DNA of 4,415 nt, taken from a virus. Its lineage: Duplodnaviria; Heunggongvirae; Uroviricota; Caudoviricetes. Position 1 is the first letter of the stretch, and every line of letters begins with the position of its first letter. The DNA lies in IMG/VR virus record IMGVR_UViG_2693429662_000010; one strand, given 5' to 3'. The position numbers were made by a program. Shown piece after piece: positions 1 through 3,000 of this stretch.

Positions 1-3000
1 CCTGGTCCCTGACGCATCCGGTGGATGACGCAATTACCCTGCTGACACAGGGCGGCAGACTGACCTGTAAGTTCCGCCTGTCAGGCGCACTGACCAACAA
101 TCAGTTCGGGCTGGGGATTTATCTGTATACGGACGCTCCCGTTCCTGATGGTGTGGCGATGACGGGTACCGGTAATCCGTTCCTGATGTCGTACTTCACT
201 CAGACCACTGACGGCAGAGTGAATCTGATGCATCACAGGAAAGCCGGAAACACGAAGCTGGGGGAGTTCGGCGATTACGGTAACGACTGGCAGACGCTGG
301 AGCTGGTGTTCACCGCCGGCAGTGCCACGGTTACTCCGAAACTGAATGGAGTGGCTGGCCCGGCATTCCAGGTTATAAAAGACAGTCTGACACTGGGACT
401 GAATGCGCTGACGCTGACGGATGTTACAAAAAATGCAGCGTATGGCGTTGAGATAGAAAGTCTGGTGCTGGAGATAAATGCACCGGCATCATCATAAAAA
501 GTGAGCCAGTCAAATGGAAGGTATCGTTAAACTCACCGGTAGTGTCAGTGGGTCGTCTGAGACGCCTGCATGAGTTATCAGAGCCATCAGTACTTAACTG
601 GTGGCTTTTTTTATTGTTGTCAGCTTCCGGATAACGGGAGACGGGGTATGTACCAGATGGAAAAAATCACAACAGGTGTGTCATACACCACGTCAGCGGT
701 GGGGACGGGATACTGGTTACTGCAGCTGCTGGACAAAGTCTCTCCGTCCCAGTGGGTGGCGATAGGTGTGCTGGGGAGTCTGCTGTTTGGCCTGCTGACG
801 TATCTGACAAACCTTTATTTCAAGATTAAAGAAGATAAGCGCAAGGCTGCGAGAGGTGAATAATGCCTCCATCATTACGAAAAGCCGTTGCTGCTGCTAT
901 TGGTGGTGGGGCTGTTGCCATAGCGTCTGTGCTCATCACTGGTCCGAGTGGTGACGATGGCCTGGAAGGTGTCAGCTACATACCATACGAAGATATCGTT
1001 GGCGTATGGACTGTATGTCATGGACACACCGGAAAAGACATCATGCCCGGTAAAACGTATACCGAAGCAGAATGCAAAGCCCTCCTGAATAAAGACCTTG
1101 CCACGGTCGCCAGACAAATTAACCCGTACATCAAAATCGATATACCGGAAACAACGCGCGGCGCTCTTTACTCGTTCGTTTACAACGTGGGCGCTGGCAA
1201 TTTCAGAACATCGACGCTTCTTCGCAAAATAAACCAGGGCGATATCAAAGGCGCATGTGATCAGCTACGGCGCTGGACATACGCTGGCGGTAAGCAATGG
1301 AAAGGGCTGATGACTCGCCGTGAGATTGAGCGTGAAGTCTGTTTGTGGGGGCAACAATGAGCAGAGTAACCGCGATTATCTACGTTCTGGTCATCTGCCT
1401 CATCGTCTGCCTTTCATGGGCTGTTAATCATTACCGTGATAACGCCATCGCCTACAAAGAGCAGCGCGATAAAGCCACATCCATCATCGCTGATATGCAG
1501 AAGCGGCAACGTGATGTAGCAGAACTTGACGCCAGATACACAAAGGAGCTTGCTGATGCTAATGCGACTATCGAAAGTCTCCGTGCTGATGTTTCTGCTG
1601 GGCGTAAGCGCCTGCAAGTCTCCGCCACCTGTGCAAAGTCAACGACCGGAGCCAGCAGCATGGGCGATGGAGAAAGCCCAGGACTTACAGCAGATGCTGA
1701 ACTCAATTATTACCGTCTCCGAGGTGGAATCGACAAGATAACCGCGCAGGTTAACTACCTGCAGGAATACATCAGGACGCAGTGCTTAAAATAATTTTAA
1801 TTTCACTGAAATTTAACAAGTGACTTTCAGGAAAATGCCTCGCAGATGCGGGGCATTTTTGTACCGGTATTTCACCGCGCACCGCAGCGCACAATAAACA
1901 CCGAACCTGACCCTTTGGAATGGGCCTTTGAGGATACCAGTTAGTGCTGGCGAGCCTCGGTGGGCTGGTTTCCTGTGCGGCAAAGGTTCATTTCAAAGAA
2001 GCAGGCAACGCCATGAATGAATTAATTGCGAATCATGACTTCGACTTTCGCCAGTTAGTTACCGCAGCAGAAGGTCAACCGGTAACTGACACCTTCCAGA
2101 TTGCCAGGGCATTTGGTAAACGCCATCAGCATGTGATTAGGGCTATTAAATGTTTGAGATGTTCTGAGGAATTCTCGACAACCCATTTTTGGGCCGTCGA
2201 GAAAATCAATGGCTTAGGTATTTTTGACAAGAAACAGATTTACTACCGCATGGACTTTAGTGGCTTCGTTATGCTGGTTATGGGATTTAACGGGGCAAAA
2301 GCCGATGCTGTTAAAGAAGCCTATATCAATGCGTTTAACTGGATGTCAGCAGAACTCCGTAAGTACAGCGAAAGTTATGAAGCAGAACGTAACGCCGTAA
2401 TGCTGGAGTACATGAAAGAGAAGGATGTCGCCAGCATGTCAGGCCGTCTGCTCAATCGCTGGGGGAGAACGAAAAAACCTCAATTGCTTGCAAAGCTGGA
2501 ACGTCTGGAGAGACAGGGACAGTTTTTATTACCGGGATTCGATAAAGGTATTCAAGCCTGACACATTATGCGCTGTATCGTCGCCGTATTCCCGCATTAA
2601 CCATGACCGTAGCCCGACAGGGAGACTCCTCTGCGCGAGTGTGCGGGGATAATCAAAAACGATACACACCGGGGTTTACCGCGTTAACGGAGCGCGGCGT
2701 TGTCCCCTCATGGTCGCTGGTTCGGTGCGATGGTGGAAGAAACCGGACGATGTGTTACCTCGCAAGACCTGTTATGTCATGTGTCTGATTTGTGATTTAA
2801 GTCGGATAATTGTCGTTGCCATTAAGCAGAGGATTGATGGCCGACAGGGTGGCATTGTTAGAATAAGACTTATTCTTATCTGTGCCGGGAATGAAAATGA
2901 AAAGAAATCTTCCGTTAATTATTTTGTTGTCTTCTCTGGTTATGGGCTGTACGCAACATAAAACAGATATGCCCCGACAGTTGGTTAAGGCATTACCACA

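What the first reader, a model, noticed from the sequence alone, without database searches (positions are those of the whole stretch)
2834..2876. Operator-like 17-bp palindrome overlapping the candidate promoter of the TonB-domain lipoprotein gene
A perfect inverted repeat AGAATAAG-a-CTTATTCT (2860-2876) overlaps the extended -10 element TGtTAGAAT (2856-2864) and the predicted transcription start, about 20 nt upstream of the gene. This is the classic placement for a repressor operator and suggests the moron is conditionally expressed. Given the TonB theme I checked for a Fur box, but the match to GATAATGATAATCATTATC is poor, so the cognate regulator is unknown.
Basis: seen in the sequence. Interest (0 to 1): 0.45.

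Follow-up and report, generated by a model that had tools for sequence, protein, structure and literature searches.

The report
Moron promoter with an incidental palindrome
The 17-base palindrome is really there, but only its left half, which is the -10 element of an ordinary promoter for a prophage TonB-domain lipoprotein gene, is conserved, so a repressor binding site is unlikely.

Summary
AGAATAAG-a-CTTATTCT lies at 2860-2876, overlaps TGTTAGAAT (2856-2864), and ends 20 nt before the ATG at 2897 of a TonB C-terminal-domain lipoprotein gene. This gene sits in a 673-bp cassette in the late region of a lambdoid E. coli prophage.

A palindrome this good occurs in 13% of shuffled windows. It is single-copy in two whole prophages and matches no Rfam family.

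The gene has three lineages:
- A: the window's lineage, 417 of 5426 E. coli genomes.
- B: phage 21 and Perceval, 1225 genomes.
- C: one contig.

All three keep a -10-like hexamer and A and B also its TG (A/B 15 of 17 identical; neighbouring segments 9/40 and 1/17).
- B has lost the right arm through a ~14-nt deletion. Its gene is still transcribed in LF82 lysogens, above its late-gene neighbours and steadily across ten samples.
- Within A, the left arm never varies in 103 loci, while the right arm varies at the background rate.
- C keeps a 7-bp stem with two double changes, but this is not significant.

Best reading: an extended -10 sigma-70 moron promoter followed by a U-rich leader, with the symmetry a lineage-specific by-product. 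A lineage-A-only operator (Fur consensus 13/19) is not excluded. Interest is low.

The parts
2748..3420 (+). Moron cassette, relative to Stx2 phage 1717, which lacks it. It carries the promoter region, the TonB_C lipoprotein gene and the 3' end of the minus-strand DUF3950 gene.
   Evidence: window 2541-2747 aligns to L002 2980-3186, and window 3421-4329 aligns to L002 3453-4360. The 673 bp in between replace 266 bp of phage 1717; 175 of 182 phage records match only the first ~186 nt of the query (window 2562-2747).
2791..2812 (+). Upstream conserved block TGTGATTTAAGTCGGATAAT. Function unknown. It has a CRP-like left half-site, TGTGA-N6-TCGGA, centred about 72 nt upstream of the predicted start.
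   Evidence: identity over the aligned columns is A/B 17/23, A/C 19/23, B/C 16/23, against 19-23 of 49 and 9-20 of 40 in the flanking segments. The whole-site CRP consensus match is not significant.
2834..2839 (+). -35-like hexamer TTGATG (4/6 match), 19 nt upstream of the -10 hexamer.
   Evidence: It is conserved with the same 19-nt spacer in lineage C and is absent in lineage B. The built-in scanner, which allows 16-18 nt spacers, does not call this promoter.
2853..2869 (+). Conserved promoter core CATTGTTAGAATAAGAC. It comprises TG (-15/-14), the -10 hexamer TAGAAT (2859-2864) and the discriminator. It includes the left arm of the palindrome.
   Evidence: this is the longest invariant run (17 nt) among 24 haplotypes from 103 lineage-A loci; permutation p = 0.086. 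A/B identity is 15/17 here, against 9/40 upstream and 1/17 downstream. The hexamer is TAGAAT in A, CAGAAT or TAGAAT in B, and TAAAAT in C.
2860..2876 (.). The perfect 8+1+8 palindrome AGAATAAG-a-CTTATTCT, which is the finding itself.
   Evidence: It occurs once per locus, always at this position, in lineage A only. Two lineage-A haplotypes break the right arm: C2875T and T2870G.
2869..2886 (+). Right arm plus a pyrimidine-rich leader, CTTATTCTTATCTGTGCC. The predicted transcription start lies at about 2870-2872, inside it (inferred).
   Evidence: This stretch is deleted in lineage B, where 'CCGT' stands in its place. It is T-rich but different in sequence in lineage C. A/B identity here is 1/17. 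The start site is inferred from the usual 6-8 nt distance after a -10 hexamer; it has not been mapped.
2887..2902 (+). Shine-Dalgarno GGGAA (2887-2891) followed by a tandem ATGAAA-ATGAAA. The probable start codon is the ATG at 2897.
   Evidence: The segment 2886-2905 is conserved in all three lineages (16-17 of 20). The ATGAAA copy number varies from 1 to 3 among loci.
2897..3223 (+). TonB C-terminal-domain lipoprotein gene, 108 aa, with lipobox LVMGC.
   Evidence: Pfam TonB_C, E = 5.2e-15. It aligns to the E. coli TonB C-terminal domain in PDB 8rd6/1u07 at about 3e-16 over residues 26-104.

Best explanation
The region is the promoter of a moron, that is, an accessory gene with its own promoter inserted into a phage genome.

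A sigma-70 promoter of the extended -10 type sits here: TG at 2856-57, TAGAAT at 2859-2864, and a weak TTGATG 19 nt upstream. It transcribes the TonB-domain lipoprotein gene from about 2871, in lysogens as well as during lytic growth. During lytic growth the gene is also read through from the late promoter.

The left arm of the palindrome is conserved because it is the -10 hexamer and discriminator that RNA polymerase contacts. The right arm is simply the start of a pyrimidine-rich, roughly 25-nt leader. An A-rich -10 region next to a T-rich leader is self-complementary almost by construction, and in lineage A it happens to be perfectly so. On this reading the dyad is not a protein-binding operator.

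Shown:
- the sequence and the conservation pattern;
- loss of the right arm in lineage B;
- lysogenic transcription of the lineage-B gene.

Inferred:
- the exact start site;
- that the same promoter is used in lineage A;
- that the right arm has no regulatory role.
For: (1) Weight-matrix scan. The 2859 site scores 12.1, second best of 8758 positions on both strands of the window. The homologous site in lineage C scores 11.4 and is the best in that region.

(2) Three-lineage comparison. The block 2853-2869 shows A/B 15/17, while the segment before it shows 9/40 and the right arm plus leader 1/17. The hexamer keeps A at position 2 and T at position 6 in all lineages: TAGAAT, CAGAAT/TAGAAT, TAAAAT.

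(3) Lineage B lacks the right arm through a ~14-nt deletion. B includes phage 21 and Perceval and is found in 1225 of 5426 E. coli genomes, against 417 for lineage A. In E. coli LF82, the Perceval 'TonB fragment' is listed as a moron at 8-fold over the prophage background. It reads log2 5.0-6.6 in all ten samples, against 2.3-3.7 for Rz and 2.3-4.3 for the terminase small subunit. It is not differentially expressed (log2FC 0.26) (PMC9928086).

(4) Within lineage A (103 loci, 24 haplotypes, 29% of 160 positions variable), the left arm and extended -10 have 0 variable positions. The right arm has 2 of 8, which is the background rate. Neither change is compensated in the left arm.

(5) The palindrome is single-copy in the whole JLK-2012 genome and in 40 kb of the PA20 prophage. 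These two have different immunity regions.

(6) A palindrome of this quality appears in 13% of shuffled windows.
Against: - No transcription start has been mapped for any lineage. The expression evidence is at gene level and for lineage B only.
- The -35 match is weak, with an unusual 19-nt spacer. The built-in promoter scanner does not call the site.
- In lineage B the hexamer is CAGAAT, and overlapping TATATT or TATTGT may serve instead.
- In lineage C the TG is displaced by one base.
- Lineage C keeps a 7-bp stem and 3-nt loop at the same place, with two double (compensatory) changes and one T.G. This hints at selection on pairing.
- A perfect 17-bp dyad exactly over -10/+1 is the textbook geometry of a repressor site, and 13/19 to the Fur consensus lies within the range of weak real Fur boxes.
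- My sigma-70 matrix and the regulator consensus sequences come from memory, not from a curated database.
Confidence: 0.6

Rival explanations
1. The dyad is a true operator, specific to lineage A. A dimeric host regulator binds the 17-bp palindrome over -10/+1 and represses the promoter. Fur is the thematically obvious candidate; Lrp-like half-sites are another lead. Lineage A would then be conditionally expressed, while lineage B, having lost the right arm, is constitutive.
For: - The symmetry is perfect and placed over the best promoter-like site.
- The Fur 19-mer consensus matches 13/19 at 2862-2880, with the three ATAA/TTAT cores in register. Only 4% of shuffled 153-nt regions and 0.7% of shuffled local 37-mers score as well.
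- Lineage B, without the right arm, shows flat expression across ten samples, while the host tonB gene changes in the same data set. This is what a lost operator would look like.
- 97 of 103 lineage-A loci keep the perfect palindrome.
Against: - The right arm varies at the background rate within lineage A, and both variants break the symmetry without compensation.
- The right arm is absent from lineage B, and in lineage C seven of the 17 palindrome positions differ from A (three in the left arm, the centre, three in the right arm).
- 14% of random palindromes with the same arm composition reach 13/19 to the Fur consensus, so the Fur likeness largely follows from the sequence being an AT-rich palindrome.
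- There is no second site in two prophage genomes and no linked regulator gene. The DUF3950 gene is absent next to B and C.
- DeoR matches only as one half-site, which is the -10 itself. My recalled Lrp consensus scores 10/15 elsewhere in the region, no better than shuffles.
Confidence: 0.2
2. The inverted repeat acts as an RNA hairpin in a longer transcript. That transcript would be either late-promoter read-through or one starting at an upstream promoter, for example near the conserved GATAAT at 2805-2810. The hairpin would affect stability or translation of the lipoprotein mRNA. It sits just upstream of the Shine-Dalgarno sequence.
For: - Lineage C preserves a 7-bp stem and 3-nt loop at the homologous position, with G-C to A-T and A-T to G-C double changes plus one U.G.
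- In the window an outer helix, GGCAU/GUGCC, extends the structure to -11.5 kcal/mol, z = -2.4.
- During lytic growth the gene is necessarily read through, so both arms are transcribed.
Against: - The inner stem is only -2 to -3 kcal/mol.
- A fold of the 76-nt context is not better than shuffles: z = -1.0.
- The covariation is not significant. 62 of 500 shuffles equal it, and p is about 0.05-0.12 under a transitions-only null. It is expected when a purine-rich arm faces a pyrimidine-rich arm.
- Lineage B has no hairpin at all.
- T2870G in lineage A breaks a pair.
- There is no Rfam match.
- If transcription starts at about 2871, the left arm is not in the lysogenic mRNA.
- The upstream GATAAT has no usable -35 (score 7.4).
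Confidence: 0.1
3. Nothing functional lies at the palindrome or the -10-like hexamer. The real promoter is elsewhere in the 170-bp shared upstream region, and the conservation of 2853-2869 is chance or serves another purpose.
For: - No start site has been mapped.
- The 17-nt invariant run has permutation p = 0.086 only.
- The -35 is poor and has a 19-nt spacer.
- The promoter scanner finds no site here.
Against: - Block 2853-2869 is a conservation peak between lineages that share only about 70% protein identity.
- It has the best or second-best promoter score in A and C.
- It lies at a sensible distance from the start codon in all three lineages.
- The lineage-B gene is autonomously transcribed although its upstream neighbour bor is on the other strand.
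Confidence: 0.1

Closest known systems
Moron promoters of lambdoid prophages (for example lambda bor and lom; the HK97 morons described by Juhala and Hendrix). From established knowledge.
   Same: - An accessory gene is inserted between conserved late genes (lysis cassette and terminase).
- The insertion has sharp boundaries against phages that lack it.
- Its GC content is lower than the flanks: 0.41-0.46 against 0.53-0.58.
- It has its own sigma-70-like promoter.
- It is transcribed in the lysogen, shown for lineage B in LF82.
- In phage 21 and Perceval the gene sits directly next to bor.
   Different: - No clear intrinsic terminator follows the gene.
- The promoter relies on an extended -10, with a 19-nt spacer to a weak -35.
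- The start site is unmapped.
Dyad-symmetric repressor operators overlapping -10/+1 (17-bp lambda CI/Cro operators, the DeoR operator TGTTAGAATTCTAACA, Fur boxes). Consensus sequences are from memory.
   Same: - A 17-bp perfect dyad with a central base pair, placed over the -10 and the predicted start.
- The left 8 nt, TGTTAGAA, equal one DeoR half-site.
- 13/19 match to the Fur consensus.
   Different: - Only one half is conserved between orthologous promoters.
- There is no second site and no cognate regulator gene.
- The same palindrome occurs in prophages with unrelated immunity regions, which excludes CI/Cro.
- The DeoR right half is missing: 10/16 overall, no better than shuffles.
- The Fur likeness is explained by AT-rich symmetry.
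TonB C-terminal domain (Pfam PF03544; E. coli TonB residues ~150-239). This describes the gene the promoter serves.
   Same: The protein aligns to solved E. coli TonB C-terminal domain structures at about 3e-16, including the conserved PQYP segment. Pfam TonB_C matches at 5e-15.
   Different: - It is only 108 aa.
- A lipoprotein signal peptide (LVMGC) replaces TonB's N-terminal membrane anchor and Pro-rich spacer.
- It therefore cannot be energised by ExbBD.
- Its function is unknown. PHROG 1267 labels the family 'Rz-like spanin', probably by position rather than by homology.

Membership tests
Sigma-70 extended -10 promoter | -10 hexamer close to TATAAT, with A at position 2 and T at position 6 | tested here: met
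   TAGAAT at 2859-2864 (5/6). The hexamer is CAGAAT or TAGAAT in lineage B and TAAAAT in lineage C. A2 and T6 are invariant.
Sigma-70 extended -10 promoter | TG dinucleotide one base upstream of the hexamer (-15/-14) | tested here: met
   TGT-TAGAAT in lineage A and TGT-CAGAAT in lineage B. In lineage C the TG lies one base further upstream (TGAT-TAAAAT), so the feature is met in A and B only.
Sigma-70 extended -10 promoter | -35 element at 16-18 nt (dispensable for extended -10 promoters) | tested here: not met
   The best candidate is TTGATG (4/6) at 19 nt in A and C. Nothing comparable exists in B.
Sigma-70 extended -10 promoter | A primary transcript 5' end 6-8 nt downstream of the hexamer | not testable with these tools
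   No start-site data were found. The stored parts of the EDL933 Cappable-seq supplements held no matching entry.
Moron (autonomously expressed accessory gene in a prophage) | Insertion between conserved phage genes, absent from otherwise collinear relatives | tested here: met
   Window 2748-3420 replaces 266 bp of phage 1717. Sakai prophage Sp9 has the same flanking genes without the cassette.
Moron (autonomously expressed accessory gene in a prophage) | Transcribed in the lysogen above the silent late genes around it | tested here: inconclusive
   This is shown in the literature for lineage B: Perceval of LF82, 8-fold over background, log2 5.0-6.6 against 2.3-4.3 for its neighbours (PMC9928086). 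No data were found for lineage A, the window's own lineage.
Repressor operator overlapping a promoter | Dyad symmetry of suitable length over -35, -10 or +1 | tested here: met
   A perfect 8+1+8 dyad at 2860-2876, over the -10 and the predicted start.
Repressor operator overlapping a promoter | Both half-sites conserved in orthologous promoters, more than the surrounding non-coding DNA | tested here: not met
   The right arm is deleted in lineage B and changed in lineage C. Within lineage A it varies at 2 of 8 positions, against 29% background, while the left arm varies at 0 of 8.
Repressor operator overlapping a promoter | A cognate regulator (linked gene, further sites, or match to a known binding motif) | tested here: not met
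   - The site is single-copy in JLK-2012 and in the PA20 prophage.
- The flanking genes differ between loci.
- An exact-match scan of 185,579 species genomes gave only scattered hits in unrelated AT-rich taxa.
- Comparison with consensus sequences was not convincing.
Fur box | Match to GATAATGATAATCATTATC clearly above chance | tested here: inconclusive
   The match is 13/19 at 2862-2880. It is rare in shuffled sequence (0.7-4%) but reached by 14% of random palindromes with the same arm composition. It is absent at the homologous place in B and C.
Fur box | Iron- or Fur-dependent expression | not testable with these tools
   No lineage-A expression data were found. Lineage B, which lacks the site, is flat across the LF82 samples.
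Intrinsic terminator | G+C-rich stem followed by a U tract | tested here: not met
   The stem has one G-C pair among its 7 formable pairs and folds at -2.8 kcal/mol. It is followed by UAUCUGUG. The terminator scan does not call it.
Any described RNA family (Rfam 15) | Covariance-model match | tested here: not met
   There were no matches in the whole window at E <= 1.

The most novel reading that the evidence does not exclude
The perfect dyad is a recently acquired, or ancestrally retained, operator found only in lineage A. It would place the TonB-domain decoy lipoprotein under a host regulator, most attractively Fur. EHEC-type prophages would then switch the protein on in iron limitation, when TonB-dependent receptors are abundant. 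The phage 21 / ExPEC lineage lost the right arm and became constitutive. This would be a natural pair of regulated and deregulated alleles of one moron.
Probability: 0.15. Interest if true: 0.4.

Novelty: new member of a known kind. Interest (0 to 1): 0.15.

Why it matters
As it stands, it matters little. This is one more sigma-70 moron promoter in a lambdoid prophage, with a symmetry that comparative data do not support as a binding site.

The more useful by-products concern the gene:
- A lipoprotein-anchored TonB C-terminal domain is carried by about 30% of complete E. coli genomes, in two main alleles.
- It is present in the classic phage 21.
- It is expressed in lysogens.
- It has no known function. 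Interference with TonB-dependent receptors, and hence with phage, colicin or siderophore traffic, is an obvious hypothesis that I did not test.

The natural leader variants (A with the dyad, B with the deletion, and the C2875T and T2870G haplotypes) provide ready-made constructs for testing whether the dyad does anything.

Tried and rejected
- **CI/Cro-type operator.** Rejected. The palindrome does not recur anywhere in JLK-2012 (57 kb, including the cI-cro intergenic region) or in 40 kb of the PA20 prophage, and these two have different immunity regions.
- **Operator for the neighbouring DUF3950 (YlcI/YnfO) protein.** Rejected. That gene is also present in phage 1717 and Sakai Sp9, which lack the cassette. 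It is absent next to lineages B and C.
- **Operator for the upstream Rha-like regulator.** Rejected. The upstream gene differs between lineage-A loci: Rha here, KilA-N in JLK-2012, a lysis protein in PA20.
- **Intrinsic terminator or insulator.** Rejected.
- **Known RNA family.** None found.
- **Upstream small ORFs.** JLK-2012 gp71 and phage 21 CPT_21_72 are annotated over the promoter, but their frames and stops are not conserved between lineages, so they are spurious.
- **DeoR.** Only the left half-site matches, and it is the -10 itself. Overall 10/16, reached by 99 of 300 shuffles.
- **Other regulator consensus sequences.** Lrp, ArgR, CRP, LexA, FNR, PurR, TyrR, IHF, ArcA, PhoP, NsrR, MetJ, TrpR, Fis and OmpR, all recalled from memory. 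None is better than shuffles.
- **Protein-based scan of one genome per species.** No relatives outside what is already known, so the family is essentially confined to E. coli prophages.
- **Metagenome scan for more lineage-C sequences.** None found. Lineage C remains a single contig.
- **Mapped start sites.** The stored supplements of the EDL933 Cappable-seq paper held no entry for the sequence or the product name.
- **Locus tag in Sakai.** Prophages Sp15 and Sp9 do not carry the cassette.
- **Literature on the protein.** Four searches turned up only the LF82 moron table.
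Full report
**What the window is**

The 4415-bp window is the late region of a lambdoid (Stx-phage-like) E. coli prophage. It contains, in order:
- the end of a structural or esterase-type ORF;
- a holin gene (649/658-863);
- an endolysin gene (863-1360);
- an Rz gene (1357-1794);
- a Rha/ORF11CD3 regulator-like gene (2013-2561);
- a 108-aa lipoprotein with a TonB C-terminal domain (2897-3223);
- a minus-strand DUF3950 (YlcI/YnfO) gene (3355-3555);
- an HNH endonuclease gene (3597-3962);
- the region upstream of the terminase small-subunit gene.

These assignments rest. 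The TonB_C match has Pfam E = 5e-15. The protein aligns to solved E. coli TonB C-terminal domains at about 3e-16.

Comparison with Stx2 phage 1717 shows that window 2748-3420 is a 673-bp cassette replacing 266 bp of the otherwise collinear phage. Of 182 phage records that match the query, 175 match only the part before 2748.

**The observation**

The palindrome AGAATAAG-a-CTTATTCT is at 2860-2876 exactly as described. It overlaps TGTTAGAAT (2856-2864) and ends 20 nt before the annotated ATG at 2897.

It is not statistically striking on its own. A perfect palindrome with 8-nt arms and a spacer of at most 1 nt occurs in 13% of dinucleotide-preserving shuffles of the window. With a spacer of at most 4 nt it occurs in 25%. 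The window also holds several other palindromes of equal quality.

**The promoter**

I scored the window with an approximate sigma-70 weight matrix; the position frequencies are recalled from the classical compilations. The site TTGATG-19 nt-TG-n-TAGAAT scores 12.1, the second-best of all positions on both strands.

The tool's stricter scanner, which requires a 16-18 nt spacer, does not call it. The promoter would therefore depend on its extended -10.

**Relatives**

The protein family is narrow and essentially confined to E. coli prophages. It falls into three lineages:

| Lineage | Members | Frequency | Genomic context |
|---|---|---|---|
| A | the window, JLK-2012, several Stx1a phages, an O157:H7 prophage | 417 of 5426 complete E. 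coli genomes | followed by DUF3950, HNH and terminase small subunit |
| B | phage 21, ev017, Perceval of strain LF82 | 1225 of 5426 genomes | lies next to bor and before cos |
| C | one contig, L165 | single example | different downstream genes |

Lineage C is 85% identical to B and 72% identical to A at protein level.

**Comparison between lineages**

Aligning the upstream regions gives a clear pattern.

| Window segment | Content | A/B | A/C |
|---|---|---|---|
| 2791-2812 | upstream block | 17/23 | 19/23 |
| 2813-2852 | variable segment | 9/40 | 20/40 |
| 2853-2869 | CATTGTTAGAATAAGAC: TG, -10 hexamer, discriminator, left arm | 15/17 | 11/17 |
| 2870-2885 | right arm plus leader | 1/17 | 10/17 |
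| 2886-2905 | Shine-Dalgarno and start | 17/20 | 17/20 |

- The hexamer is TAGAAT in A, CAGAAT in B (TAGAAT in one B variant), and TAAAAT in C. The two positions most critical for sigma-70 are always kept.
- Lineage B has a deletion of about 14 nt that removes the right arm entirely: AAGAC-CCGT-AGGAAT.
- By parsimony, A and C share the long leader and C groups with B by protein. The deletion is therefore derived, which makes lineage B a natural right-arm deletion mutant.

**Expression of the natural deletion mutant**

In E. coli LF82, the Perceval 'TonB fragment' is 99.4% identical to my lineage-B reference. Table 1 of PMC9928086 lists it as a moron expressed 8-fold above the prophage background.

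In the supplementary table it reads log2 5.0-6.6 in all ten samples. Rz reads 2.3-3.7 and the terminase small subunit 2.3-4.3. Its upstream neighbour bor is on the opposite strand and is strongly regulated (4 to 11). The TonB fragment is scored as unchanged (log2FC 0.26), while host tonB changes.

Two conclusions follow. The shared upstream region contains an autonomous promoter, and that promoter works without the right arm.

**Variation within lineage A**

Across 103 loci there are 24 haplotypes over 160 nt, and 29% of positions vary. The longest invariant run is 17 nt, at 2853-2869, which covers the extended -10 and the left arm (permutation p = 0.086).

The right arm has two variable positions out of eight, which is the background rate. 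They are C2875T (5 loci) and T2870G (1 locus). Both break the symmetry without any change in the left arm. Constraint therefore falls on the promoter core, not on the dyad.

**Is there a partner for an operator?**

- The palindrome occurs exactly once in the 57-kb JLK-2012 genome and once in 40 kb of the O157:H7 PA20 prophage. Weaker look-alikes occur at the number expected by chance. These two prophages have unrelated cI-cro regions, which excludes a phage repressor.
- The genes on either side of the cassette differ between loci, so no regulator travels with it.
- An exact-match scan of one genome per bacterial species returned only scattered hits in unrelated AT-rich taxa.
- I compared the region with eighteen E. 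coli regulator consensus sequences, all recalled from memory. Only Fur stands out, at 13/19 over 2862-2880 with the three ATAA/TTAT cores in register. However, 14% of random palindromes with the same arm composition do as well, and the match is absent from B and C.
- TGTTAGAA equals one DeoR half-site, but the other half is missing.

**The hairpin alternative**

Lineage C differs from A at 7 of the 17 positions, all by transitions. It still forms a 7-bp stem with a 3-nt loop at the same place. Two pairs changed on both sides (G-C to A-T and A-T to G-C), and one became T.G.

This is suggestive but weak:
- With transitions only, the probability is 0.05-0.12.
- The formal pair count gives 62 of 500 shuffles at least as good.
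- A purine-rich arm facing a pyrimidine-rich arm pairs readily by composition alone.
- The inner stem is worth only -2 to -3 kcal/mol.
- The 76-nt context folds no better than shuffles.
- Lineage B has no hairpin.
- Rfam has no match.
- If transcription starts at about 2871, the left arm is not even part of the lysogenic mRNA.

**Conclusion**

The finding is best explained as the extended -10 promoter of a moron. The left arm of the palindrome is the polymerase-contacted -10 and discriminator. The right arm is the beginning of a U-rich leader. The perfect symmetry is a lineage-specific by-product (confidence about 0.6).

A lineage-A-only operator, with Fur the most attractive candidate, keeps about 0.2. 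An RNA hairpin in longer transcripts keeps about 0.1. 'No function at this spot at all' keeps about 0.1.

The operator part is not.

This is an ordinary feature and deserves a low score. The uncharacterised, widespread, lysogen-expressed TonB-domain lipoprotein is the more interesting object, but it is not the finding under review.

Noticed in passing
window 4058-4179: The octamer ATGTTAAC occurs five times, in both orientations, within 122 bp just upstream of the terminase small-subunit gene. Chance predicts 0.23 occurrences, and 0 of 200 shuffles reach five. These are probably terminase/cos recognition repeats.
   Followed up: partly
window 3051-3024, minus strand: A near-consensus sigma-70 site, TTCACA-16 nt-TATAAT (11/12), lies antisense inside the TonB-domain gene. 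It is the best promoter score of the whole window. It would drive an antisense RNA across the gene's 5' end and the palindrome. The sequence is partly constrained by the conserved AANYIKG codons.
   Followed up: no
window 2891-2902; L166, L200, L016, L024: The hexamer ATGAAA at the start codon is present in one, two or three tandem copies in different lineage-A loci. This changes the spacing between the Shine-Dalgarno sequence and the ATG, and possibly the N-terminus (MK / MKMK).
   Followed up: partly
L003 (E. coli 14EC017), junction corresponding to window 2875/2876: An IS1 element is inserted inside the right arm of the palindrome. Everything downstream of the prophage is lost, and the host gene btsS follows.
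   Followed up: partly
window 2791-2812: A second conserved non-coding block, TGTGATTTAAGTCGGATAAT, is kept in all three lineages at a near-constant 47-49 nt from the -10 hexamer. It has a CRP-like arrangement, TGTGA-N6-TCGGA, centred about 72 nt upstream of the predicted start. The full CRP consensus match is not significant.
   Followed up: partly
window 2897-3223: PHROG 1267, which contains this protein, is labelled 'Rz-like spanin' (E = 2.6e-42). The protein is nevertheless a clear TonB C-terminal domain with a lipoprotein signal peptide. The label is probably an annotation error based on position. The lipoprotein's function is unknown. About 30% of complete E. coli genomes carry lineage A or B.
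   Followed up: partly
window 2710-2961; L001 3190-3399; L161 2535-2672: Public records annotate small 'hypothetical protein' ORFs over the promoter region. Their frames and stop codons are not conserved between the three lineages, so they are probably not genes.
   Followed up: yes
window 3355-3555, minus strand: The DUF3950 (YlcI/YnfO) gene is 66 aa here. Pfam matches its residues 21-50 (E = 4.6e-20), and by eye the sequence looks like a ribbon-helix-helix, which I did not test. The right boundary of the cassette (3420) falls inside the gene, so its C-terminus differs from the 52-aa version in phage 1717.
   Followed up: no
window 580-608 and 4334-4359: Two strong terminator-like hairpins with T tracts lie on the plus strand. 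One is just before the holin gene and the other is at the right end of the window.
   Followed up: no
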